From assembly GCF_964204865.1 (NCBI RefSeq), contig NC_135257.1:15190001-15254000 (forward strand): 64,000 nt of DNA. Reading direction: 5' to 3'. Below are positions 15,289 through 46,611 of the stretch, one piece after another (the stretch's first letter is position 1; every line of letters starts with the position of its first letter). Origin of the DNA: Styela clava. Lineage: Eukaryota. A program made the position numbers and the translations under genes. The notes beneath the pieces were generated by a model. That model was given only the letters and a program-made list of their open reading frames with translations, was not told where the DNA came from and did not search any database.

Positions 15289-15464
15289 CAGAGGTGGGAT
15301 TCAATTTTTTTGTCAGCCGGTTCCATTACAAAAGTCATATTTTTCAGCCGGTTCTGTTACAAAAACTCATGTTTTTTCAGTAATGCTAACCGGTTCGCTG
15401 ATCTCATAAAATTCCGTGAGACGGTTCTATAGGACCGGGGCAAACCGGCTGAATCCCACCACTG
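15289..15464. mobile_element. hAT-type MITE
   Basis: TIR CAGAGGTGGGATTC / GAATCCCACCACTG; 8-bp TSD GCTACAAT at 15281-15288 and 15465-15472. Confidence 0.88.
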
Positions 15465-15768
15465 GCTACAATCAACAACAGGTTATTTAATCACTAATAT
15501 CCCATAACATTTGATCTCAACATCTCACTATTTTGATATTGCTTTTATCCTCACTGCAATTCCGAAGAACACAATTTATTTCGCTGATCTCATAAAATTC
15601 CGTGAGACGGTTCTATAGGACCGGGGCAAACCGGCTGAATCCCACCACTGGCTACAATCAACAACAGGTTATTTAATCACTAATATCCCATAACATTTGA
15701 TCTCAACATCTCACTATTTTGATATTGCTTTTATCCTCACTGCAATTCCGAAGAACACAATTTATTTC
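15394..15768. repeat. 186-bp tandem duplication including the right end of the MITE
   Basis: 15394-15579 is repeated at 15580-15765 with TTC junction microhomology. Confidence 0.9.
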
Positions 15769-16388
15769 AAGTAGAATAGAAGATTGATTGACATACATTG
15801 GATCTTTTTTCATCCAGAATAACTGTGTGCGATAATTTTATTTTAATATTTGGCAGTGGATAAAATAGCATAATATGCTCAAAATTGTGTTTTTCATGTT
15901 CAATATGCAAGTTTCCTTTAGTAACTATTAACTAAGCATACCTCAAAATAGTGCTAATATAACATTCTTTTATCTATCGCAGAGCTCCTAAGACAAAATT
16001 TATCATGATTGTTTCGTTATATTTTCATGACGTGGTAATCAGCGAACTGAGCTGGGTATCAGTTTCCCATGAAGATTTCCTAAAATTTTGGTTACATCAA
16101 GGCAGATTTACGAGCAGAGATAAGTTGGTTATTCGACACAAAAGAAAAGAAAGGGTCAAATTTTTATCACCGTATTCCAATTGTAGTATCCCTCCAGACC
16201 AGTCGAAAATTTGGGTTGCGCATTCAAACCTACCATCAGCCTCGTCGCCCATATTCGCGCAATAACACATTTTTTTTGACTGGACGGACAATTCCGTTTA
16301 AGAAAAAAAAAAATACCTATGTCTCCGTGGCACAAACCAACAGATATTTGTGAGATAGGAAAACCTCCCGCAACCGATTTAAGTCAAT

Positions 16389-16886
16389 GGACCTTTCCCC
16401 GAGCTTCCACTTCCTTGTTTACTTCGTGACATTGGCCAATCAGCAAGATGTAAAACGTGACGTAACAATGCCCCCTTTTCGCATCTGCTCAGACACTTTT
16501 CTCACTCAGACAGATTTTCAAGCGTGGTTGTAAACATTACCTCGTTTTTGCGTTTTTTAACTCTATTCGTTAGTTTTCAGTTGTGTTTCGGAAACTTAAA
16601 TATAAATCAGATAATTCAATGATCACTCTTTCTTCCTAGGAGTTTTAATTTAATTGCAGTAATAAAAATTAGTGTAGAAATAGCTGTGATAGATTAGCCT
16701 GAAATTCTTTACCGGTAGTTTTAAAAAAGAGATTGTTGTATGCAATGAATCATAATGATGATTTGAAACATATACCCCATTTTACAGGCGCCAACTCGGA
16801 AAAGCACTCTTAAAATAGCCCCGAAAATTTTGCAATGGTAAAGTATAGGAAGAATTTTTCGGGGGTCAAAGGTCGGGGAAAGGTCC
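16389..16886. mobile_element. Non-autonomous DNA transposon, ISL2EU/PIF-Harbinger-like
   Basis: 14-bp TIR GGACCTTTCCCCGA / TCGGGGAAAGGTCC flanked by AT on both sides (putative 2-bp TSD). A diverged inverted copy lies at ~55420-55936. Confidence 0.8.
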
Positions 16887-17358
16887 ATAGGATGAATACA
16901 AATAGAGATGTGAATAAAACTAGCACAAGAACCAGCAGTTTTCAGCGACTTTTTCAGCCTTCAGAAAAAATTTTGTGCCGATGATCCGGCTTGCAGTCGT
17001 ATATTCTCGTCATATCCAACCCTGCAAAAAAGGGTATCGACATTGCGACTGGACGAAATCGTACTGGAATAGATTTAAAACTTGGCTTGTTCAATGCATA
17101 ATAGCTCAAAATGGCTTGTAAAACATATTGAAAATATATGACTTAACCGTCTTATCGGCCTTGCTCTTCGATGGGATGAATTTAAGAACTTGATTCCATC
17201 ATAAATACTGTATTAGTCAATTAGGGCTTGATACACGCTTGCTTCGTAAAAATAGTCAAGCATTATGACGTCACTAAAGATTACAATGTTTGCAAACAAT
17301 GACCTTTTATCAATCCGTCAAATTTATGGTAATTTATTTCATTCTGATTTCAACGCCT

Positions 17359-20300
17359 ATGGTAAGTTAATCTTTGTTATTCGATGTATTTTTAAATAGC
17401 CTTTTCAATTTAAATCATTGAATCCTCTTATTCCTTAACAGAAAATGGGACAAGGAAAAAGAATTAGAGTTTTTCGACGCCAAATCGGCTGGGAAAAATC
17501 TATCAATAAAGCCGCCAAAGCTTTGAAAAAATATGGAAAAATTTGTTCCAAACGACAGAAGGAGGAACTCGAAAAGGTTTGTTAAATATATTTAAGTCAG
17601 CTAGTATAACTCTACAAAGCTATATGTTTTTATTTGAAAACAAGGGTTGATTTTCTTTTTATTAATTGGGACGGGTAAGATAGCGGGATTCTTGCGTACA
17701 TGATCGAAGCCTTTTCTATTAATCAAATGAATTCGCTTTTTGTTTAGATTTATGACGTCATAATCCATTATAAGCATACTCTTACTAAAGAGAGCTTGTG
17801 ATGCTTATTTTTGATTACAAGCAGTTCGGTAACTTAAGCGTTTCAAACGTTTAGCGTTTTTTAGCGTAGCATTTTTTTGAGCGGCTTCAGTAAGACATCG
17901 GCAGTTTATTTTTTTTAACTTCGGAGATCGTTTTTGTTAGAGAACTTCGAAGTCGGGGAAATTTTACGCCAAATCCAAGCTCCAAGCTTTTCAAATGACG
18001 AATTCTGTTTTAACTCCAAGTTTACAAAAATTTCAATTCCGATAAAACCGAATTTTAAGAGTGAAAACTTTTAGTGCAAGCAACCATTTCCTTCCGTTGT
18101 TAATAAATAGTAGACTTCGATTTTTTATCGGAAACTTTGACGTCGATTATCACGTCGATTGAAATTTATAATTTCAACTTCGGCGCGGATTTCTCGACTC
18201 CGGAAATTTGGAAACTCCGGACTTCTCAATAGGAACATGCAAACCCCCCACTCCACAGCTCAAGCGGACACTCGATAGTCCTACGGTCGCACGTTGCATA
18301 AACCTGTGTTCTGAAAATGGATAATCTACGATGTCCGCAAAACATAATTCTTCCACATTTTCAAGATCTATCTACTATACAGCACGAACTTAAACTATGA
18401 TATCTTTCAGGATCCATCCAAAGGAGAGTTACCTCAATCAATATTAAATATCATTCTTGACTGGGCGAGAAAACAGTCTAAGAAGGTTCGTATCACTGTG
18501 ACGTATTCAGGATATAGTGTCATTGGGTTTTGTATTAAAAACTGGTGCTGTGGTTTAAAATATTCGCGGTTCCGTAGTCTTACTAAGATTATGCTGTAGT
18601 CGCAAAGTACACTACATAGCGACATAAAACTCCATCCAGCTAGAACCGAAGTAACACAATTTGTTTGGTCTCTATCTTTGTAGGATGTACTAAAGTTGAT
18701 AAAATCGGTGTATTATTTTATTTTCAGCTGTGTGTATGCATGCAAAGTCAAGAAAAAGAAACGGAGAATTTTGAGGAAGATATTCCGGTAGGCAATTATA
18801 TAAATAAAATCTTAAATGATATTAGTTTTATAATACATTCAGTTCTCCTCGTTGCGGTTAGCCTTAGCAGTACGCTCGATTTTCGGCCCCTGATCTAAGG
18901 TTTGTTTCGAATACTCGTATAATGCCGATCATACCAAACTGGGTCCTTTAAAATTAGATGACCAAGCACGTCTTGTCAAAAATATTACATCGGCAGCAAA
19001 TTTCACTAGTGTAAACGCACTTATTCAAAGGCGTAACTCTGTGACATCATTCAACTGTGTTCACGTGAAAGCAAATCAGTTTCAAAATAAGAGGTTCTTC
19101 AGCCCAAAAGCACGATTATCTTTTCCAGTCGACCCCACAGAAACCAGATGTTACAAGAAGCCGTTCCGCATATCCCCAGTCTGTCAGATTAGATCCAGAT
19201 GCGTGTTGTTCTGGACATTGTACTAAAAACAATAAAAAGGAGGAAGCATCATCTTTGTGGTATCAACTATCACCGTCGTTTTCAGAAGAAGTAAATAGTA
19301 ATTTATGAACCGTTCAAATTATATGGACTAGTACCACTAAAACGGTGACTTTTTAAAAGCAATAATCTTTTTGCTGAAAAAAATGCTAAAATTCAAGACA
19401 AAACAATTTGTTACAACAAGGTCCACGTCGTAATCCGGCTCAGCGAAGCCTAATACATTGTATGATTGCAGCAATTCAAAAACCATTTAACTGTAGTTGT
19501 AATCTACAAGAACAATAGCAAACATCGACTTCTTGAGTTGGTACAGAATTATATTTTGCTATTTAGCCGATTCAAAGGGTGTGTGAATGCATTCATGAAT
19601 ATTCCTTTCCAGGATCTTAGTCGAGAACCGACTCCTCCACATCCATTTGAAAAAATATTGAGAGAACGAAATAGTCTAAATTACACTGAAAAAGTGAGTT
19701 TGTGTTAAATATTGTTACTTGAATGTACTACTAAAAGGTTCAATAATATCTTAATCAAACTTTTTTTGTTTTTCAGATGGACATTGAATATGCAAAAATA
19801 AGATCATTGGTAAGATTAGTAGTATTAATGAATTCAAATAATCTTGATTTATATTATTAAAGAATCCTCGCGTTTTCATTTAACAGGATTCGGATGGAAG
19901 TGAATCACCTGATTACATGCAGGCTCTATTACGTCCCTCTGAAGTAAATATATTATTTATTTTTATAGTAATACCTTAATTACTTTTAAATTTTTTTGGA
20001 AGACCTCATTCTACGATTACTTTATTTTTTACCTTATTTTAGATCAAACAAAGACCCAGTTTCTTTTCAGATTGGAATAGGGTAAGTTGTTGCTGTATGA
20101 ACACGAGATCATTAGGTAAATTATCGTTAGAAATCGATTCATTAAAATATCGTTTAAAATAACCATGAACGCTCCGAGGTGTAACAGTTAATAGTGGTTA
20201 TTGTAGAAGAATTACTTCGTCTATGATTCAGTTTGAGATTCCGGGCCTCATCACCCGACAGCTAATTAAAATTTACATACCGTTTTTGCTTTGTTTCAGC

Positions 20301-23300
20301 CAAATCCGTTTTTCCGTCTACCAGGAAACACGCCACCTCCTTTCCCAGTTTAAACCGAAGTAACACAATTCGTTTGGTCTCAATCTTTGGAGGATGTAAC
20401 TAAAGTTGATAAAATCGGGGTATTATTTTATTTCAGCTGTGTGTATGCATGCAAAGTCAAGAAAAAAAAACGGAGAATTTTGAGGAAGATATTCCGGTAG
20501 GCAATTATATAAATAAAATCTTATTACATCGACAGCAAATTTCAGCTAGTGTAAACTTACTTATTCAAAGACGTAACTCTGTGACATCATTCAACTGTCC
20601 TGCGCGTAAATGCAAATCAGTTTCAAAATAAGAGGTTCTTCAGCCCAAAAGCACGATTATCTTTTCCAGTCGACCCCACAGAATCCAGATGTTACAAGAA
20701 GCCGTTCCGCATGTCCCCAGTCTGTCAGATTAGATCCAGATGCGTGTTGTTCTGGACATTGTACTAAAAACAATAAAAAGGAGGAAGCATCATCTTTGTG
20801 GTATCAACTATCACCGTCGTTTTCAGAAGAAGTAAATAGTAATTTATGAACCGTTCAAATTATATGGACTAGTACCACTAAAACGGTGACTTTTTAAAAG
20901 CAATAATCTTTTTGCTGAAAAAAATGCTAAAATTCAAGACAAAACAATTTGTTACAACAAGGTCCACGTCGTAATCCGGCTCAGCGAAACTTAATACATT
21001 GTATGATTGCAGCAATTCAAAAACCATTTAACTGTAGTTGTAATCTACAAGAACAATAGCAAACATCGACTTCTTGAGTTGGTACAGATTTATATTTTGC
21101 TATTTAGCCGATTCAAAGGGTGTGTGAATGCATTCATGAATATTCCTTTCCAGGATCTTAGTCGAGAACCGACTCCTCCACATCCATTTGAAAAAATATT
21201 GAGAGAACGAAATAGTCTAAATTACATTGAAAAAGTGAGTTTGTGTTAAATATTGTTACTTGAATGTACTGCTAAAATGTTCAATAATATTTTAATCAAA
21301 CTTTTTTTTGTTCTTCAGATGGACATTGAATATGCAAAAATAAGATCATTGGTAAGATTAGTAGTATTAATTAATTCAAATAATCTTGATTTATATTATT
21401 AAAGAATCCTCGCGTTTTCGTTTAACAGGATTCGGATGGAAGTGAATCACCTGATTACATGCAGGCTCTATTGCGTCCCTCTGAAGTAAATATATTATTT
21501 TTTATAGTAATACCTTAATTACTTTTAAATTTTTTTGGAAGATCTCATTCTACGATTACTTTATTTTTTACCTTATTTTAGATCAAACAAAGACCCAGTT
21601 TTTTTTCAGATCGGAATAGGGTAAGTTGTTGCTGTATGAACACGTAATCACTAGGTAAATTATTGTTAGAAATCGATACATTAAAATATCGTTTAACATA
21701 ACCATGAACGCTCCAAGGTGTAACAGTTAATAGTGGTTATTGTAGAAGAATTACTTCGTCTATGATTCAGTTTGAGATTCCGGGCCCCATCAACCGACGG
21801 CTAATTAAAACTTACATAACGTTTCCGCTTTGTTTCAGCCAAATCCATTTTTCCGTCTACCAGGAAACACGCCACCTCCTTTCCCATCGGACTGGAATTT
21901 AAAGGAATCGAAGGTAAGAGCTATATTTTACTAATTGATATTAAGGATTTGCTCCTCTATTCATCAAAGTGCGTAAATTTAGTTGTACATGAGATTGAAT
22001 ACAACAAATAAAGATTTTCACAAATACCATTTCGAGTCATAGATCGGTCAAAAAAGTTATCGACGATGTGCTATTTGCTATTAGGTTCACTTCAGGTTTC
22101 CAAGTAGAGATTTTTTGGTTCAGAGTGTTACTTTGTCTGGTGTATTCATTTTTCTTGCAACTTGAAAAAAGTAGAATTAGTATGTATCTAAAGTTGTTTT
22201 TTAATTGCAAACGTGATCTCACATATTTATTTTGATTAAATGTTATTCATATTTGACAGGAGGCTCCCAGCTCTCGACCAATGGCTTCTACTGTTTTGCC
22301 TGAGCCTGAATGGGAAGTGTCGAAAGATGATACAAATGCAATGACGGAGGTATGTTGAGTAGTTTGTACATATATTTTACAGTTAAGTGGATAATATCTA
22401 TCATTCTTGTCACAATAATTAGTGATATTGTTTGTGCTTCGCTCACTCCGTCTTTCGCCAGAATAGCTTCTCCAAAACCTTCATGTTCTTTTGCCTAAAA
22501 CATGCTACAATGTTTTTTTCTTGCATCCCTACCTAAAACAAGCAGAACTGAGTGATATAACTGTAGATTCAGATAGGCAGACAAAAACATCGACTACACT
22601 ATGTTTTGACCTATATATTTTATATTAACAGGTAAACACCGCCGATAGTGAGAAAGAAAAAATATCAGAGATTCACGTAAGATTCCTGCCTCACAAAACT
22701 TATTGTCGCCCCCAATGTACTTTATTTATCACAATTTGTATAAATACTGTTTTCTAGGTTGCAATGGCAGTGGCTGAAAGAATGGACTGGATGCTTGAAC
22801 AGGTTGAAAATAACCTTGGAGGAAATTCACCTAATCTTTCCAAAATCATAGTGAGTTAAAAATTTTAGGTCTTGCGTGAGAAATATTCAACATGAAATCC
22901 CAAAATGGAATAAGGTTGACAAGGAAATTTTCTTTAAGCATATTTTGGGTAAAAGGCGCCACCTATGGCCGGACTCAAAATCTTGTAGACGTATATAGAT
23001 ACATTGAGAGATTATTTCAAATTATCGGTATATCAGGTATATCAGGTATAGAAATTTATGTCAGACATTCCAGTCATTTCAAAACACTATAGTTTTAGCT
23101 ATACGATAGAAAAATAAATAAAAAATTTATGTATTATTATAATAATATTACGTGTTTCAATTTAACAGGAAGAGGCTGTAATACAGCACAGTGAAAGTTC
23201 AGAAGTCAACGAGGAATGTGATGATGGAGAAGTGAGTTGCATTATATTTTATTTATTGTGATCGTATATATTCATATTTACGCAAACCAGGGACAAACGC

Positions 23301-25954
23301 TTTAAATATATTTCAACATTTTTGCATGATTCGTACAGTTTCTTAGTTTATAAATATACTTATTTTAGAGTGACAATTTATCGGTATCGGTGGATATGAG
23401 TTCAGAAGACGAAGAAGAAATCAACATTCGAGAGGTTTGTTTACATTTTGTTCCTGATTTCCCATTTAATAATCTTAATCTCAATCAAAGTGCGTTAAAG
23501 CATTGGACCTGACTTTGACATCGCAGATTACACGTCTCTGGTTCAAATCCCACGTCCCACTCCATCCAGAGTCTACTAAATTGAGTAGGCAATGCAGAAC
23601 CGAAAAGATTCAGGTTCTTCCAAATAGCATTAGCTGCTCACATTCTTGGTATTATTGGATGCTTGTATACGACCTGTTTAGAAGCGAAATGCGCCAATAG
23701 GCATTGTATAGAATTAGAACCAAAAAATTTGTCTCAAAGACAAGATTCTTTCGTGAAATTCAAATCTTTGCAAATCTAGAGAAAAAAATGTTTGAACATC
23801 ACAGTTTATGACAGCTAAATTTTGTATTTCGAAAAAAAAACATTTGGAATTGATTTTTTTAGCTTGATTCAAGAGCAACTTACGTTGTTGATGCCGATGT
23901 TACTTCACTGGTTCCTGTGAGTAAATTTACTTTGAATATAATTAAAGTATTGTTTGATTACGATAATTTAAATCAAAACATTTATTCCAGACTGATGAAA
24001 CATGCGAACAATGGGTTGATGACATTTTGTTTGGCGAATTGGAAGTCGTTGGTAGAGAGGTGAGCATGTAACATAGTATTAAAAACATTCTGCAATTTTT
24101 TTGCTCATCTATTTATATGCTTTTTCATACAGGAGTCAGACTTAATTTGTTTGAAATGTGAATTAAAATATATTCTTAATTATTTTTTGCCGATGACTTT
24201 GTGGAACAAATTCTTACACATAAGATAATTGAGTCTATTTAATTGTTGAGGTCAGTATAGCATTCGAGATGATAATTCAGGAGTGCGCAACAGGCGGCCC
24301 GCGAAGCCATTTAGCGTGGCCCTTGCAAAAACTCAAATTTTCCCAATCAAGCATAAAATCCTAATCCGACAGTTTATGTTTAAAAAGACGCTAACATGGT
24401 TAAAAATACATAATTTTTTTTTCTTGCTTTTGTCGCTGAGTTAAATCTTTCGCCATTTTGCCCGGTGCCTTTGTTACCGTAATTTAAATTTTTCAGTTCG
24501 TTTTATCGTTCAATTTCGTTTTAAATGTTTAATTTGTTGGGTATATGGAAAAACTATATATTTTTGTGTGGCCCAACTAGATGTCTGAAGTTGGTTATTA
24601 TACGTTGCACACCCCTGCTATAAACAATCTCGTTCGGACTCTTTCTTTCCAAATTTCAAATTTATAAAACTGAACATAAATTCCAATCGGATTTCAATAT
24701 TGTTGAAATTGTTTACAGATGGTGTCGAGAGCAACATACATTATTGAACCAGATGATTCAACCTTCTTTGAGCCTGTTGTAAGTTACGATGTTACGTTTT
24801 TCCATTTAAGAGATTCAATTGAAGTTCAACTATTAAATCTTATCCATAAAATATTATTGAATGAACACCAAACAGACAAATTTACTTGTGTATAAAAATC
24901 ATATTTTTGTTGTTAAAAACTCTTTTGAGGCATTGCCTATAATCGATCGAAAATGTTCCAGTAAGCTCAAACTTTAATTTTAGAATCGCAATTTAAATGA
25001 GATTGCTTGTCTAAAGACTAGTTGGGAGTCATGGCGTAAACACCAATTGGAACTTTCTACCAACCTAATATTCATGTTCCAACATATAACATTGTTAATA
25101 CTGATATTTTATAGTTTGAAGAAAAATCAGAAACTCCAATCGAAGACATGATAAACGAAATTCTTGAAAACACACAAAATTTGATTAAAGAGGAAAAAGT
25201 GAGTAAATATTATCCCTTGGAATACACTAAATCTCAATTTATTCTGTCGATTAATTCTTTAAATAAAAAATTTTAAATTTTGTTTTATCAAAAAAGTTTT
25301 CAGTTATTGAACTACAGTATGTTAATTCAGTTATATATACTTCAAGTATATAATATAGTTTCAACAATGATACAGTATATGATAATATATTGATAACCTA
25401 TATAAATCATAAATTTTGATATTAAAACAAAGGAAAAGAACTCTAAAACAACAAACTCATGTTCAAAGGAAGATCCTGAAGACATCGATAAATTCATACA
25501 GGTTAGTTGTAATAGTCTACCTGTGTTGGTTTTACCTGGACTTAAAATCTCAACAAGCTACCAGATGTCAGTTTTGAAATATAATAAAAAATTTACTGAT
25601 TCGCCTAATATAGAATCAAGGAAAATGATTCTCACTTTCTAAGTTTACTTCATCCATTTTCTAAAGCTTTCATTTATTTTGACCAAAAATATTTTTAAAT
25701 CTCAACTTCAAAGAATCATGCTATGAATAAAGTAGGCCCACAAATATATTCACCCGAAACTGCTGCTTTGTATTAAAGGCTAATTAGAATAAAGTTTATT
25801 GATGATATACAATATTCTATCAGTTATTTCTTACTTTATCTCAGTCAAAAAATATTGTCTGAATATCATGAGAACCTGCAGATTCTTGGTTCCGTCATTG
25901 AGTTTTTTTATTTTAAATTTACAGGATTTTCTTTCTGAATCAACTCCGGTATAA
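17359..25954 (+). CDS. Uncharacterised multi-exon protein: basic N-terminus, acidic/low-complexity C-terminus, ~640 aa with the duplicated block (~480 aa without)
   Basis: Exons: 17359-17361 (ATG), 17442-17576, 18411-18485; block 1: 18728-18787, 19129-19290, 19613-19693, 19777-19809, 19887-19943, 20043-20081, 20300-20347?; block 2: 20437-20496, 20670-20831, 21154-21234, three more matching exons, 21839-21913; then 22260-22349, 22632-22676, 22758-22850, 23169-23231, 23369-23434, 23863-23916, 23991-24059, 24719-24778, 25115-25198, 25433-25501, 25925-25954 (TAA). All have AG/GT ends, are stop-free and are multiples of 3. No family recognised. Confidence 0.72.
18637..21886 (+). repeat. Intragenic tandem duplication (~1.7 kb + ~1.54 kb) of a 7-exon block
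   Basis: ~18637-20347 and ~20345-21886 are near-identical; copy 2 lacks ~170 bp of intron (~18813-18982). ORF pair 19466/21007 differs by two residues. Confidence 0.93.
24278..24617. mobile_element. Diverged hAT-type MITE in an intron
   Basis: Imperfect TIR CAGGAGTGCGCAAC / GTTGCACACCCCTG with subterminal GGCCC motifs; TSD not evident. Confidence 0.6.
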
Positions 25955-28340
25955 ACGACAGGACATAAATATGAGCATCCTGTTCTCAATACACTCGGCA
26001 ACCAAGGACAGGGTGATTTGGCAGCAAGTTATCAAGATTTTTAATTTAAATTGATCGGAAAATGATTTTACGTAGGATAAACACAACGAGACAACTGTAG
26101 CTTAACGGTGTAACCATATTGTGATATATTTAGTATTTGAGATTTATCTCGTTGTCCAACGTAATTTAGCCTTGTTTATGTATTATTAGTATTTTGTCTG
26201 CAAGATTGCTTACTGGTAATTCTCAAGTAACCACTGACTTGCTAGGAGCAACGATTTGATTCATTCAATTCTGTAAGAAATAGCTAGATAGCATTTTTGA
26301 AAAAGTACTTTTTCCTAATTTAGTATTTCGGCCAGGAATTTATTTAAACAGTGTTTCAGGGTTTTTAATTGCTGTCTTGTTTACTATGTCAGGCAGCGCT
26401 TTAAAAAAATTAAATTTCGGCAATATGTACTTATGTCAACCAAGATAACAAAGTCTGCACTATATGCTTGAGGATATTAAAGTGACCTATAGTTTCTCCC
26501 GGTAGTTATGTAAGTAGCCTTATGTAAAAACAAATCATAATTTAGTTTTATGAGTCGTTTATCACACTTACATTCTGAACGAGGCTCTGTACAAACAGCC
26601 ACTGATGCGTATTGAGTCACTATTTCTACTCAGTATATTGCCTTCATTCAGTCACTGATACGTACGGAGCTCCTGTTTGTTTGGCGAACAGGTCTGAACC
26701 TGAGATCTTTACCCTGCGCCGCATATATAGCTATATTCTGCGATGTAACTATCAGCTCGTAACTGTTCAATGTTAGCTTAAATGAAAAGTTTGACACATT
26801 ATATTGAACGAGACTAGAATAAGGCATTTAGACGTGAGAATCTGCTATGGGCTTTCGAGAGGAACGTTTCTATACTTGCTCTATTGGTCAATCTTTCCAC
26901 GTTCACGGCCTCTGGGTATAACGGCTTATCATAATTCGAACTCAAGAAATATAACTTGAGCCAACTGAGTTGGGTAATCGCACTCCACTAGCCCAGAGCG
27001 TACCCACTTCATGTTTTAATACCAGTGAATCGACGAAATGGGAGTTTAGGTTCGACTCAACTCAAATGTCTTTTTTATAGCATGAGTCGATTATGGTAAT
27101 GATGACCTGTTATTAAACTCAATCAGTCGCTTTCTTGTGGAATTTTTTTTATTTTTCACTGTGATACTTTCAAGTGTTCCATTTTCTTTTCTTTGATAAA
27201 TAAAACTTGTTTCAGTCAGATAAAATATGAATTGATTATTGTAGGATGTGAAGCCTGTTGTAACACTAAACGATAATTTAAATAGGATCATGCTGGGATC
27301 CTATTTTAGAAAACTTATTGACATAGATGTTCAAACTATGAAATGGATACAGTAGTACAAATTTGAAATTCCACTGAAATCCTCGGGCTTCTCGGTGGGT
27401 ATGGGATTTCCACGGGACGGGCATACATGGCTATAGGGGATGGGATAGAAAAAGATGTCGCATTGACAAGCCTGGAAATCGCTTATCGCTAAAATTCCAA
27501 CCATAATTGTGACTGCAGATTAAGTCAAAAAAGAGACCGTCTTTCAATTAGAACACTTCAAATTACGAAGTGTGCTTTTGAATCTAGAAAATACCTATTC
27601 GGGCATAGTAAAAATAGAAAAACATGATGTGTCGCATCATACATACATCGCATAAAAATACATCATTTAAATCCCCGCGTGGCGCAGTTACATGATTTAG
27701 GAATCGGTGAATTCGTGGCATTTTATTTCAATGAGCTATTTGCAATAGCCCTTAAGCAGGCTCTGAACTGAGTCTAGCATTCAAATTTTACGGTTAAAAG
27801 GCATTCTGAATTTGAAATGTTTGCTAAATATGCATTTTTTCTAAACTCAAATGTTATTTTATTCTATTATTGGTAATGTTATATTAGTGAGTATAACGGC
27901 ATATTGGTTGGACGTCTGCAAGACCCATGCACTGCCCAATGAAGTAAATTACAATTTTTTTAATCGTAATAAATTGAAGAAACATATAATCACAATTCAT
28001 ATCGACGCCATTAATTATTAAAGTACGACAATAATAATAATAATAATAGCGCAAATACGTGATTGTAAAACAATGAAGCATCGGAGTGCATAAATTATTC
28101 ACAATGTTAAATCAAAAATAAAGAGTAAAGAATGCCAATAACCTTCAAACAAATCCTTCACTTATTATAATAAAACTTTTAATTATACAGATTAAAAAAT
28201 GAAATTCACATCTATGATACACCAAATAATATAGGCGAGCAGCAAGATACTCGCATAAAAAAAATACAAATATTTTTGAAGTACATATTGGAGTTCAACT
28301 TGACTTTATTTCCTGAATTAGTTGATGGCTCTGAAAATAT

Positions 28341-40800: not shown

Positions 40801-43800
40801 TTGAGAAAACGCTAAAGCTTATTAAAACAACGAATGCTTCATTAGAAATGAAAAGGTTTGAAAATAATATTATAGATACCTGTGTAACGCACGTTCTTAT
40901 TTAATTTATGCCAACCTTATCAAAATGCAGACAGTTTTAAAATGAACATAAATTAGTGAGTAAAACTTTAGACAATTTGTTTCTGTAAATATTAATATTT
41001 ATCGTTGAAATAAACGTTGTTTCAGGTGCAATTTACAAAACAGGCAACGTATTTCAAACAACTACTAAAGGAGCGATTTATCCACGTGTAAAGTGTGGTA
41101 GGACAATAACAAATACTAACGAAGGTAAAACACATATGCATATTTCCATTACCTTAGAAATATAGGACGTTTTTAAATACGTGGAAACGAGATATTTAAT
41201 TTACCATTTATGATAATAGTATCAACTTGCTTCAATTTGTGCACTGTAGTTAAAATGTGAATTCATTTACTCAGGTGTTATCGAATCACCAGGTTATCCA
41301 CTGAAATACAAATCGAACTTGCGATGCGATTGGTTAATTCAATCACCTCGTAAAAGTGATCACATCTACGTAAATTTTATCGACTTGGATGTAGAGGAAT
41401 CAAACTTGTGTTTGTAAGTGTTTTTTATTGCACCACACGAAAGCAGTGTGTCGTATTTTCATATAATAACGCAACAAAAGCACGAAAGAATTTTCGTATA
41501 TTTTCTATTTCAAAAAAATTCAGCGAAATGGGTAAGATAGTATAGTATAAGTGTCGAATTTTTTCTAATTTTAAACGATTCTTGCTTGGGAAAGTGAAAA
41601 TTGCAATTTTTTTTTTCCATCCATGAAGCAAATATTTAGTCATATTTATATATTCAAAACTAGTACCAAACCCGTACATTCCATATTTATATGTACATTA
41701 ACAAAGGACAAGTCTGAAACGCGCCAGGTTTTTGAGAGCAACAAATCGGGGAGTCATTTATACTTCCTGTTCGTGGTGCATACTTGAAAATCTTTATTCT
41801 TGCTCGTGCGGGGATTATTGGGTATTGACTAATTTCACTTAATTAACTGTGTAAAATATTACAACAGTCTATACATAACACTGTATAATATACTGTGTTT
41901 ATACACTATCTATATAACAGCTGATATTGTATTAAATTTTCATTGTTTAATGAAATATAATTTACTTTTAGGTTTGACTATGTTTCTCTAACATTTGAAG
42001 GATCTCGACCACAACGATTTTGTGGATACGAGACACCATCGAATCAACCTATTATAGTTGAAAATAGTGGATGGATTCGAATTAAGTTTTTAACAGATGG
42101 ATCAGTAGAAAAATCGGGATTCAGGATTGCTTTCAAAAGTACGTGTTGCATAAACATATGTATACCGTATTACCGTATTCGTATATTATGGATAACATTT
42201 TGAAACAATTTGTTTTTAGTCGAGAAAAGAAGTTCAGAAGAAATGCCGATACTTTTGCCTCAAACTCAGCAACACAGGTATACTCCCTTACCAGAGAGCA
42301 CTTCGGATAAATTGTCAACTAATTACGATTCCTTGAGATTCAAAGAGTTCTTTCGTTTTGCATCTTCATTAAAAAGTAAGTTGATAATATTGTGTGATAA
42401 AAACAACAGGGTAAAACCGATGCTTTTTATATTGGCGTCTACAGTACTATTAAAGTTTGCGAACACGTCAAAATACAGTTACTTCGATTTTCAACAACTT
42501 TTAAGGATTTTATTCAAATTTTGATAAATCTCACATCTTATTTACAACTCATCCGCGATATTCGTTGCTGAGCATACCATATTGTAAAAAGAATTTGAGA
42601 ATCGCGGTAACACACAAAATTTAGGTTACCAAAAATGAATGGAAATTCCTAAAAAACGAGGTGAAATCAACTCCATATATAATTAATGCAGTGATTGTAA
42701 TGCAAAATATTTCATTAATTTTTTTACAGTGCCAAACTCGACTGATGAAGGGAGCCGGACAACCGACAAAAGCAAAACAACCTTGTCGAGATGTCAGCTT
42801 CCAAATGTAGACCAAAAATTCAACGTTGGCGACATTGTGCGGATTACTTGCTCGGCAGGGGAGCATGACTCTCAAAATTCTACTAATATAACTTGTCTTC
42901 CGGGCGGCCAATGGACGGAATCACTTTCATGCAAACCATTCGGTGTGCTTGAATTCATATTTTAAGTTTAAACTAATAGTGAAATTACTTTAATTTTATA
43001 TTATGCTTTTTATTAAATAGTTTAAATTTTAGATGTTCTTTTGCGATGTTGGTGCAAAAGGTATTAAACACTTCAGATAGTCACTCCAATATCTTTCTGT
43101 TATCACGATTCACGTTATCGTTTATGATAGTAGCAGCGAAAGAGTTCGCCTTTTTAAATAACATAATATATGTACCGCTTAGATTGCTGCAATGTGTCTG
43201 TTTATTGGATTAATAACGAAAAACAAGAAGTAATTTCAAAATTATATTTAAACCAATTAATTCTTGAGTTATACAAGATTTATAGTTCACATATTCTTTA
43301 TAAATATATCAGATGGAATATATTTCAAAATAAGTTTTGTGTGAAAAGCCAATATATATTCACTTTTTACGCATATTGCATGGCTTGTATTAGAAACAGT
43401 TATTGTAAGTTTGAAAGAATACCATCGGACACCTCTGTATTTCAATTACATCGTACGTTTTATGCACTGGCATCACAAAACTGGATACTAACGTGAGTAT
43501 AAATAAATATTTTACTACAGATATCACAGGACATGCGAAAGTGGAATCTCAAATTGTGTTATCATACTGGCAGATTGCGATGCTGATCGTGACCGGGGTG
43601 GCATGTACAATATACGTCATCTTTACATCGTACCTGTTTGTAGCTCAAAGGTAAAATATTGAAAAGTCTGACTTCAGTGATGCTTACCTGATTTGCATCC
43701 AAATTGCATATATATTGCTTTTTTGCATATAAATGTTTTGCACTTCGAACACGCGATACATCCGTCATTATCGCGATATAAGATAAGGCCTTGTCAAATC

Positions 43801-45055: not shown

Positions 45056-45483
45056 GGATTTTATATTCCATAGAGTTCAGGTTTGCAAAATATCAAAGTG
45101 TATAATTCCCTATTTACACAGGCTTTATTATAGGAATAGAATAGTCATAGCACTGAATTTCACATTTGGCTATCCTATTTAAGGTGACTGCAAATACATT
45201 TAAAAAAAAATTATAGTCGAATTTTACCGTGAAATAGGAATTATTGGAATTATAAATCTCATGAAGTAGGTTTATCGTTATCAGGATAATTCTAAAACAG
45301 CAAAACTCCATGAAACTCTGAAAGTAATCGTAATAATTCTGGTTGCCTGTGTAACATTATAAATGCAGTTTGTTTCAACAAGAAACTGACTATTTTTATA
45401 AAATAATTAACAACTTTATTTGATTATGCTTATAAATGTAAGTAATAATATTGTAATTTTAAAAAGGCTGAAAACGGGTAAAT

Positions 45484-46611
45484 ATGAACTCCACCACGAC
45501 CCAACCAGACGCCGAAACAGAAGATCAGATTCAATGGTGGTATCCTCTCATCGACCCGACAAAAATGTTTCCAGGCTTACCTCCTGCGATCGCCGTCATT
45601 ATGTATTGTTGCGTTATAGTTGGAGCTGTGATAGCCATGCTTCTTATTATGTGGTTATGCTCAAGTTGTCTTGCCAGAAAAGGCAAAAAGCGCAATGAAA
45701 ATGAACATCTGAAATCATTGAATGGGTCAAAAAGGAGTAATACCATATGGAGTACTTCAGGGTCTGGCAAAATGGCGGGAAAAGACAACGATGCATTTGA
45801 AATGCAAGAGAAAGGAACAGGGGGACAAAAGTATGACACGTTAAAACATTTGGAAACAATGCCGTGGTGGGATTATGTTTCGAATAGGTCTCCTGTCAAC
45901 TGGTATGATTATTATCAGAAAGCAGAAAGAAGAAACCGAACAAAAACTTGCGAAAGAAACAGTTGTCATCCATGGTTAACGCCAGATGACACAGGCCGAG
46001 AACGTAAGATGAAGCGTTCATCACGGTCACAAAAAGAGGCGTATCCTCGAACAAGCGAAATCGATGCAGGATGGGAAAATGTACGTCCAAGAAATATCGA
46101 CGCCGCACATTACTGGCACCCTTCAAAGGCGCTTGATACAAGATATTTTCCGAAATTCCGAATGATTCCCCGTGCAACGTGGACTAACGAGCACCTCTTA
46201 GGTTGCTACAGGCCAAATTGCTACAGCGAAGATTACGGAAATCACAGTCTGGCATCTCTCACATCTACGGATATGCAAATCATGCAGATGATTGCCAGAA
46301 GACGTGACGGATTCATCCGACCAACAAGAGGCGACGTGTTTTATGGTAATTGTTTGGATTCGGTAGTTCCTGTAAAAAAATGTGGACAAATATATATGAA
46401 AAGTCCAACATCGTATAATAATGGAGCCCATAGACAAGCTTTGCCCACACTTAGTTCATATTCTGCAAGGAAAGATCATTCTGTTACATCTACTCCCCTG
46501 CATTCCGATACTCGAGTAGAAAATCCGCCTCCTGAATTTGGCATGGACGATATTCCACCGCCGCCAACTCCACCGCCATATCCTCCACCACCAACGCCTT
46601 TGCGTTCTTAA
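45484..46611 (+). CDS. Intronless 375-aa single-pass type III membrane protein, adaptor-like
   Basis: Longest ORF in the window. N-terminal NST sequon, no signal peptide, TM AIAVIMYCCVIVGAVIAMLLIMWL, juxtamembrane CSSC then ARKGKKR, Tyr/Trp-rich cytoplasmic region, C-terminal polyproline containing PPPY. AATAAA at ~46694. Confidence 0.8.
   Translation: MNSTTTQPDAETEDQIQWWYPLIDPTKMFPGLPPAIAVIMYCCVIVGAVIAMLLIMWLCSSCLARKGKKRNENEHLKSLNGSKRSNTIWSTSGSGKMAGKDNDAFEMQEKGTGGQKYDTLKHLETMPWWDYVSNRSPVNWYDYYQKAERRNRTKTCERNSCHPWLTPDDTGRERKMKRSSRSQKEAYPRTSEIDAGWENVRPRNIDAAHYWHPSKALDTRYFPKFRMIPRATWTNEHLLGCYRPNCYSEDYGNHSLASLTSTDMQIMQMIARRRDGFIRPTRGDVFYGNCLDSVVPVKKCGQIYMKSPTSYNNGAHRQALPTLSSYSARKDHSVTSTPLHSDTRVENPPPEFGMDDIPPPPTPPPYPPPPTPLRS

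What the first reader, a model, noticed from the sequence alone, without database searches (positions are those of the whole stretch)
17359..25954. Orphan ~28-exon gene in which every intron is phase 0
Seen in sequence: every exon I could define from AG/GT signals is 30-162 nt (plus a 3-nt ATG exon), a multiple of 3 and stop-free in phase 0. The neighbouring FAM135, SDR, CUB and CINP genes have mixed phases. With 20 non-duplicated introns, chance at p~0.5 each is ~1e-6. Inference: any exon can be skipped or duplicated without frameshift, an architecture suited to combinatorial isoform diversity (loosely like schistosome micro-exon genes). The product looks disordered and acidic with no recognisable domain. 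Caveat: manual exon picking can favour in-frame exons.
Basis: partly seen in the sequence, partly recalled or inferred. Interest (0 to 1): 0.72.

Follow-up and report, generated by a model that had tools for sequence, protein, structure and literature searches.

The report
Sea-squirt modular all-phase-0 gene family
This sea-squirt gene belongs to a small family with no known relatives elsewhere, whose roughly 20 short exons all start and end between codons, so copies and alleles gain, lose and duplicate whole exons without breaking the protein, which likely works as a floppy signalling scaffold under the cell membrane.

Summary
Observation confirmed.
- The window holds 27 stop-free phase-0 exons plus one chimeric exon with a stop (20300-, TAA 20351-53), made by a ~1.7-kb tandem duplication.
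- Database models mapped exactly give phase 0 at 22 of 22 window introns and 69 of 70 paralogue introns. RNA-like contigs match 10 of 20 distinct intron lengths.
- It is not a lone orphan: source names give a Styela clava family with at least five full-size copies, annotated 'uncharacterized', under purifying selection (dN/dS 0.25-0.30). No Pfam, PDB or fold match.
- The architecture is visibly used in the genome: copies and alleles differ by whole exons. Combinatorial splicing is not shown (one skipped-exon model pair; rates not measured).
- The protein has a basic amphipathic, Cys-bearing N-terminus, a strongly conserved tyrosine core with an ITIM-like motif in its own 33-nt exon, and an acidic tail. 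A membrane-tethered scaffold, working like Botryllus BHF or LAT, is my best reading (inferred).
- Same-phase exon runs in disordered proteins are a known pattern (PMC3632108), and this scan noted similar genes on other DNA.

The parts
17359..17361 (+). Exon 1 coding part: ATG alone at the end of a mostly untranslated exon
   Evidence: ATG|gtaagt also in the C6, C14a and C14c copies, lost in C8 and out of frame in C3; P0009 and P0017 begin M-K-M-G
17442..17576 (+). Exon 2 (135 nt): basic amphipathic helix, second ATG at 17445
   Evidence: RNA contig X9 record 23
18411..18485 (+). Exon 3 (75 nt): second basic amphipathic helix
18728..18787 (+). Exon 4 (60 nt): Cys-x-Cys after basic residues
   Evidence: (C73 invariant)
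19129..19290 (+). Exon 5 (162 nt): variable linker; absent from model isoform P0001
19613..19693 (+). Exon 6 (81 nt): start of the conserved tyrosine core
19777..19809 (+). Exon 7 (33 nt): ITIM-like I-x-Y-A-x-I motif; no amino-acid change among three copies
19887..19943 (+). Exon 8 (57 nt)
   Evidence: absent from model P0015
20043..20081 (+). Exon 9 (39 nt)
   Evidence: absent from the C14c model and from model P0003
20300..20359 (+). Exon 10: chimera of the first ~48 nt of exon 17 and intron sequence; TAA at 20351-53
   Evidence: P0006 ends here; CCAG shared at the junction
20345..21887 (+). Second copy of a tandem duplication of about 18636-20348, with a 170-nt intron deletion
20437..20496 (+). 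Exon 11 (copy of exon 4)
20670..20831 (+). Exon 12 (copy of exon 5)
21154..21234 (+). Exon 13 (copy of exon 6)
21319..21351 (+). Exon 14 (copy of exon 7, second ITIM-like motif)
21429..21485 (+). Exon 15 (copy of exon 8)
21582..21620 (+). Exon 16 (copy of exon 9); model P0005 reads on into the intron to a stop at 21645-47
   Evidence: X1 contig over 21616-21741
21839..21913 (+). Exon 17 (75 nt): NPF and proline-rich motif
22260..22349 (+). Exon 18 (90 nt): fast-changing linker
   Evidence: (X1 records 5, 6)
22632..22676 (+). Exon 19 (45 nt)
22758..22850 (+). Exon 20 (93 nt): amphipathic helix; a second copy of the exon 19-20 module occurs in the C14c and C6 genes
23030..23050 (+). Site where a 60-nt phase-0 exon is missing; present in P0008 (same gene label as P0020) and in the C8, C14a, C14b copies
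23169..23231 (+). Exon 21 (63 nt); not in the C8 model
23369..23434 (+). Exon 22 (66 nt)
23863..23916 (+). Exon 23 (54 nt): first SRATY motif
23991..24059 (+). Exon 24 (69 nt): acidic amphipathic helix
24719..24778 (+). Exon 25 (60 nt): second SRATY motif, similar to exon 23
25115..25198 (+). Exon 26 (84 nt): best-predicted helix, kept in the distant relative P0012
25433..25501 (+). Exon 27 (69 nt)
25925..25954 (+). Exon 28 coding part with the stop codon
25955..26300 (+). 3' untranslated region (at least this far), covered by an RNA-like contig with 1 difference over 25920-26300
   Evidence: X1 record 8

Best explanation
This is one copy of a small, purifying-selected sea-squirt gene family built entirely from phase-0 exons, whose copies and alleles differ by whole exons, and whose mostly disordered protein likely acts as a membrane-tethered signalling scaffold. 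Shown: exon structure, family, splicing of family transcripts, selection, exon turnover, no signal peptide or membrane-spanning stretch. Inferred: the two basic amphipathic helices and nearby cysteines would hold the N-terminus at the inner face of a membrane (charge plus palmitoylation); the conserved tyrosine core would be phosphorylated and recruit an SH2-domain partner such as an SHP-type phosphatase; the short acidic helices of the tail would dock further partners. Uniform phase lets single motif-exons be added, dropped or doubled by unequal crossover and deletion, and probably sometimes by splicing. The window haplotype has the core duplicated, and would make a 230-aa stub if the chimeric exon is included or a 624-aa protein with two cores if it is skipped.
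For: Phases. Family: DNA and protein searches of G000 find full-size copies on C9, C8, C14 (three, one with stops) and C6. Exon turnover: window lacks a 60-nt exon present in P0008 under the same gene label; the C8 model lacks exon 21; the C14c model lacks exon 9; C14c and C6 carry the exon 19-20 module twice; C6 has three exons where others have exon 5. Selection: dN/dS 0.30, 0.25, 0.29 for the 3 pairs of the 3 close copies; 0.08-0.21 in exons 6-9 and 17; exon 7 pN 0.00 against pS 0.39. Protein: net charge +13 to +19 in residues 1-75 and -22 to -55 in the rest of the long members, 3-5 Cys in residues 1-80, hydrophobic moments 0.60-0.75, highest 19-residue hydropathy 1.51, ITIM-pattern match in 5 of 5 proteins that contain exon 7. 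AlphaFold2: mean pLDDT 43.7, isolated helices. Analogy: Botryllus BHF is disordered with helices between, sits under the plasma membrane through three N-terminal cysteines and carries YxxI/L motifs (PMC12065747, section 7 and passages).
Against: No functional or localisation data. An ITIM-pattern match occurs in 23-38% of shuffles of these proteins, so the motif counts only through its conservation. The N-terminal Gly fails the recalled myristoylation pattern in all members tested. No ITAM or ITSM match. No sequence link to BHF, LAT or any named protein in 1.84 billion representatives (8 hits) or in three word-indexed searches. Atlas feature hits are all 0.80 or lower. Several copies in this assembly carry lesions (C9 stop exon, C8 last donor, C14c early stop, C14b stops, C3 frameshift), which fits a redundant family in turnover as well as an adaptive one.
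Confidence: 0.42

Rival explanations
1. Combinatorial splicing device: phase uniformity is kept so that exon skipping makes many isoforms, as in schistosome micro-exon genes or Botryllus fester.
For: Every internal exon can be skipped in frame. Model pair P0001/P0002 (isoforms X2/X1 of one gene label) differs by exon 5; P0004/P0007 differ by an in-frame 57-nt acceptor shift. Models P0003, P0015, P0018 lack whole exons.
Against: Those models do not map to this assembly or were not mapped, so exon absence may be genomic or a modelling error. The apparent two-exon skip (21900 to 22759) has unknown letters between and lies on a paralogue contig whose exons 18-19 are too diverged to lay, so it is not evidence. 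The highly covered X1 joints join consecutive exons.
Confidence: 0.17
2. Nuclear protein: the basic two-helix N-terminus binds DNA or chromatin (or is an import signal) and the acidic amphipathic helices are activation or chaperone motifs.
For: Basic head and acidic tail with hydrophobic-rich short helices; invariant Trp, Arg and Lys in the head.
Against: No DNA-binding family in Pfam for 15 of 15 members at a curated cut-off-level match (best rows are single-member weak hits); no fold match; the invariant Cys and the conserved tyrosine core are not explained.
Confidence: 0.18
3. Membrane-traffic adaptor: NPF, YxxPhi and Asp-Trp motifs in a disordered acidic chain bind EH-domain proteins and clathrin adaptors.
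For: NPF in 4 of 5 core-bearing proteins and YxxPhi in 5 of 5; exon 17 is well conserved (pN 0.04).
Against: NPF is single, not repeated, and is lost in P0016; motif patterns are recalled and common by chance.
Confidence: 0.1
4. The window copy itself is decaying: the duplication makes most transcripts stop at the chimeric exon, and function rests on other copies; phase uniformity is only inherited history.
For: Database models split the locus at the stop (P0006, P0005, P0020). One exon is deleted. In one DNA contig 6 of 6 exonic differences change an amino acid.
Against: Its last junction and 3' UTR are on an RNA-like contig with 1 difference, and exon 18 on two contigs with 4-5 differences. 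dN/dS to its paralogues is as low as between them. P0002 mixes features of both duplicate copies, which suggests unduplicated alleles exist. Not exclusive of the best explanation.
Confidence: 0.25

Closest known systems
Disordered proteins built from successive same-phase symmetric exons (calpastatin and MAP2, class 1,1; MBD1, class 0,0), Schad et al. 2013, PMC3632108 (passages and section 19 read)
   Same: Long run of symmetric exons, disordered product, exons matching short modules, growth by internal exon duplication (exons 23/25, module 19-20).
   Different: Here the whole coding region is phase 0 in every copy, the family is lineage-restricted and multi-copy, and exon content differs even between alleles.
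SCPP / SIBLING biomineral proteins (PMC3632108 section 19; PMC9122587 passages)
   Same: Family of acidic disordered proteins diversified by adding and duplicating class 0,0 exons.
   Different: No signal peptide, no sequence similarity found, 15-21 coding exons, basic N-terminus; predicted intracellular.
Schistosome micro-exon genes (bioRxiv 10.1101/2023.06.21.545858, passages)
   Same: Lineage-specific family, many short exons in multiples of three.
   Different: MEG exons are 3-81 nt (mostly 15) and the proteins are short and secreted; here exons are 30-162 nt, proteins 400-520 aa without signal peptide, and heavy skipping is not shown.
Botryllus histocompatibility factor, BHF (PMC12065747, section 7 and passages); LAT-type adaptors (as described there and recalled)
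   Same: Ascidian disordered protein with helices between disordered parts, N-terminal cysteines, tyrosine YxxI/L motifs, polymorphism; a functional analogue only.
   Different: No sequence similarity surfaced in any search; no BHF sequence was available for direct alignment; here a dispersed multi-copy family with about 20 exons; no link to allorecognition was tested.
Automatic database models LOC120346658, LOC144425912, LOC120346422 (this locus), LOC120328639, LOC120347021, LOC120347918, LOC120331679 (source names)
   Same: Same exons; 8 proteins map letter for letter.
   Different: All named 'uncharacterized'; the window gene is split in three; the family, its phase pattern and exon turnover are not stated in those names, and six of the labels occur in no searched paper.

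Membership tests
Disordered protein assembled from successive symmetric exons (Schad 2013 class) | Three or more successive exons of one symmetric phase | tested here: met
   All internal exons 0,0 in window and paralogues except one shifted donor
Disordered protein assembled from successive symmetric exons (Schad 2013 class) | Mostly disordered product | tested here: met
   368 of 513 residues pLDDT under 50, pTM 0.18, shallow alignment of 8; Atlas model pLDDT 0.39; no dedicated disorder predictor was run
Disordered protein assembled from successive symmetric exons (Schad 2013 class) | Signs of internal exon duplication | tested here: met
   Exons 23/25 z 6.1, best of 190 pairs; doubled exon 19-20 module in two paralogues; tandem duplication of exons 4-10
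SCPP / SIBLING | Phase-0 introns | tested here: met
SCPP / SIBLING | N-terminal signal peptide, secreted | tested here: not met
   Basic N-terminus, highest 19-residue hydropathy 0.39-1.51 and none at the start; hydropathy scan, not a signal-peptide predictor
SCPP / SIBLING | Descent from SPARC/SPARCL1 and cluster synteny | tested here: not met
   No such hit; synteny not examined beyond the window
Schistosome micro-exon genes | Mostly very short exons (3-81 nt, commonly 15) | tested here: not met
   30-162 nt apart from the ATG exon
Schistosome micro-exon genes | Signal peptide | tested here: not met
Schistosome micro-exon genes | Many isoforms by exon skipping | tested here: inconclusive
   One model pair; only assembled contigs, no raw or long reads
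BHF | Sequence homology to BHF | tested here: inconclusive
BHF | Cysteine-dependent location under the plasma membrane | not testable with these tools
   3-5 Cys in residues 1-80 and basic amphipathic helices are only suggestive
BHF | Encoded in the fuhc locus, needed for fusion/rejection | not tested
   Copies are dispersed over C6, C8, C9, C14; neighbours of the paralogues were not examined
ITIM-bearing adaptor | (I/L/V/S)xYxx(I/L/V) motif, conserved (pattern recalled) | tested here: met
   5 of 5 proteins with exon 7; pN 0.00; 23-38% of shuffles also match somewhere
ITIM-bearing adaptor | Tyrosine phosphorylation and SHP/SHIP recruitment | not testable with these tools
   needs experiment

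The most novel reading that the evidence does not exclude
A lineage-specific, lipid-anchored inhibitory (ITIM) signalling adaptor family of solitary ascidians in which every binding motif sits on its own phase-0 exon, so that individuals differ in motif content by exon presence/absence alleles and by splicing: a germline-encoded, polymorphic tuning device for immune or self-recognition signalling, parallel to Botryllus BHF.
Probability: 0.13. Interest if true: 0.75.

Novelty: new member of a known kind. Interest (0 to 1): 0.42.

Why it matters
It is an unusually clean natural test of exon modularity: about 20 introns, all phase 0, with whole-exon loss, gain and duplication visible both between gene copies and between alleles of one species, in a protein that is under purifying selection. 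If the tyrosine core is a working ITIM on a membrane-tethered scaffold, it would add an unrecognised, polymorphic signalling adaptor to the closest invertebrate relatives of vertebrates. As architecture alone it is a strong example of a published pattern, not a new mechanism.

Tried and rejected
Pfam on 3 proteins and on 15 alignment members: nothing shared; best rows are single-member weak hits. PDB sequence search with profile A2: best E 0.06. Foldseek of the 167-aa model (pTM 0.27): no match at E 0.001 or better; the 513-aa model was too poor to search. Atlas: feature hits 0.80 or lower (an AMER cluster at 0.76 is below the tool's bar), structure hits TM 0.26 or lower. Run search: no RNA holder on record listed; X1, X6, X9 are guessed RNA, though their contigs skip introns. 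Only one laying of reads was obtained, so copy-specific junctions at high stringency and skipping rates stay open. The joints 21900-22759 and 22829-23203 were rejected as evidence of skipping (letters between not known; paralogue contig). Depth of DNA run X2 could not decide whether the tandem duplication is shared or real; an assembly artefact is not excluded, but the two copies differ by 3.4% plus a 170-nt deletion and share CCAG at the junction. N-myristoylation, ITAM, ITSM, AKAP-type and CaaX patterns (recalled) gave no match. Allelic positive selection: in one X2 contig 6 of 8 differences are exonic (p 0.014) and 6 of 6 change an amino acid, but the contig was picked after looking and n is small; differences at 19143 and 19172 are copy-2 letters laid on copy 1 and were set aside. 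Paper searches found nothing on this family; the library lacks most subscription journals, and no supplementary files (for example expression tables of Styela studies) were read. No complex prediction was run, as no candidate partner was at hand.


Full report
The observation. Reading 16000-27500 and scoring acceptors and donors gives 28 candidate exons from the ATG at 17359-61 to the stop at 25952-54; all lengths are multiples of three. 27 of the 28 are clean. The exon starting at 20300 is the first ~48 nt of exon 17 fused to intron sequence at the breakpoint of a tandem duplication (about 18636-20348 copied to 20345-21887; 1490 of 1542 aligned bases identical, a 170-nt deletion in the second copy) and holds TAA at 20351-53. 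Without it the chain encodes 624 aa.

Is it picking bias? No. A protein search with exon 2 returned database models named as Styela clava uncharacterized loci. I mapped 12 such proteins onto the DNA letter for letter with intron phase left free; 8 mapped, 4 did not (P0001, P0002, P0008, P0011; inferred to come from another assembly). Window models give phase 0 at 8 of 8, 4 of 4 and 10 of 10 introns; paralogue models at 18 of 19 (C8), 20 of 20 (C14a), 14 of 14 (C14c) and 17 of 17 (C6). The one exception is the last C8 intron, whose donor G is mutated in this assembly, while model P0021 keeps the usual frame. That such models are guided by RNA reads is my recollection, not tested. Contigs of three runs guessed to be RNA skip introns: 13 of 13 joints tested fit the model's intron lengths, 10 of 20 distinct introns. 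Most of these contigs come from the C8 and C14a copies, as the letters between show. Window-type evidence is the last junction with the 3' UTR (1 difference in 381) and exon 18 (two contigs, 4-5 differences); the bin depth implies that these two contigs continue on exon 17 (28.51 computed, 28.5 seen, an inference). Chance is 1.8e-7 for 20 introns at the human phase-0 share of 46% (PMC3632108, passages), 1.9e-5 if only 14 are independent. Paralogues inherit their phases and are not extra trials.

What it is. G000 holds full-size copies on C9 (window), C8, C14 (C14a, C14c, and C14b with stops and lost splice sites) and C6, plus exon-2 fragments on C3 and C16; counts are lower bounds. Among 1.84 billion representatives 8 proteins hit: 6 named S. 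clava and 2 unnamed (P0012, 37%; P0013, 57%) that have no close match in G000 and so probably come from related species. Pfam, PDB, Foldseek and Atlas give nothing usable. The three close copies show purifying selection, dN/dS 0.25-0.30 over 419-474 codons, 0.08-0.21 in exons 6-9 and 17, and no amino-acid change in exon 7 with pS 0.39. So this is a real protein family restricted, as far as these searches see, to Styela and unnamed close kin.

The architecture is used. The window lacks a 60-nt exon, deleted near 23030-23050, that P0008 carries under the same gene label as the window's P0020 (6 differences in 193 aligned residues otherwise): an exon presence/absence difference between alleles, by inference from the shared label. 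The C8 model lacks exon 21, the C14c model lacks exon 9, C14c and C6 have the exon 19-20 module twice, C6 has three exons in place of exon 5, and exons 23 and 25 are old duplicates. For splicing the evidence is thin: P0001 and P0002 differ by exon 5, P0004 and P0007 by an in-frame acceptor. Several copies in this assembly are damaged (C9, C8 end, C14c early stop against P0011, C14b, C3), the usual picture of gene birth and death.

How it likely works. AlphaFold2 gives isolated helices in a low-confidence chain (mean pLDDT 43.7; 64.8 for the 167-aa isoform). Residues 1-75 carry +13 to +19 charge in two amphipathic helices followed by an invariant cysteine; the rest is acidic; there is no signal peptide or membrane-spanning stretch by hydropathy. 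The most conserved block holds two tyrosines, the second in an I-x-Y-A-x-I motif that fits the recalled ITIM pattern and fills its own 33-nt exon; then NPF and a proline-rich motif, and several short acidic helices and two SRATY repeats. I read this as a scaffold held at the inner membrane face by charge and palmitoylation, recruiting an SH2 partner through the tyrosine core. Every functional step is inferred; the ITIM pattern alone arises in 23-38% of shuffles.

Against what is known. Runs of same-phase exons in disordered proteins, including class 0,0 families such as the SCPP/SIBLING proteins and MBD1, are a published pattern (PMC3632108, passages and section 19; PMC9122587, passages). It is a member of that architectural class, but not an SCPP or a micro-exon gene: no signal peptide and longer exons (bioRxiv 10.1101/2023.06.21.545858, passages). 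It resembles Botryllus BHF in described features only (PMC12065747, passages and section 7). Searches for the gene labels and for the pattern in tunicates found no paper on the family (listings only). Earlier notes of this scan describe similar all-symmetric genes in other genomes, including another sea squirt, and none on this family.

Verdict. Interest 0.42.

Noticed in passing
window 24330-24600: High-copy repeat in intron 24 (very high contig depth in all four runs, many loose ends), probably a short non-autonomous transposon; a smaller repeat lies near 23480-23600.
   Followed up: no
window 21616-21741: An RNA-like contig runs into the intron after exon 16, and models P0001, P0002, P0005 end in a read-through tail with three cysteines; a short N-half isoform may exist.
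   Followed up: partly
L023 (G000:C16:1699100-1707400) and L019 (C16:1668600-1669600): A ~2.4-kb tandem repeat (90-94% identical units) full of frameshifted copies of exon 2; two copies have ATG or GTG directly before the exon-2 start, as a spliced exon 1-2 junction would give.
   Followed up: partly
L011 (G000:C3:5306560-5306900): Lone promoter-exon 1-exon 2 fragment with a frameshift; no other exon found in the next 17 kb.
   Followed up: partly
window 17263-17280: The palindromic element TGACGTCA followed by CTAAAG lies just upstream of exon 1 and is kept in the C8, C14a and (one change) C3 copies while flanks diverge; it looks like a cAMP-response element (recalled).
   Followed up: no
window 22269-22970: One DNA contig of run X2 differs at 8 places, 6 in exons and all 6 changing an amino acid; two match P0008.
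   Followed up: partly
window 45472-46611: 379-aa single open frame with one hydrophobic stretch and a long cytoplasmic-looking tail with many tyrosines and a proline-rich end, downstream of CUB- and sushi-like exons (41972-42942); possibly the last exon of a receptor.
   Followed up: no
L020-L021 (G000:C16:1671300-1673065, 1685334-1688294): Long open frames that look like DNA-transposon transposases (hAT-like and piggyBac-like, by recalled motifs).
   Followed up: no
window 15394-15768 and 16387-16888: A perfect two-copy 186-nt tandem repeat, and a 20-nt inverted repeat pair 462 nt apart upstream of the gene.
   Followed up: no
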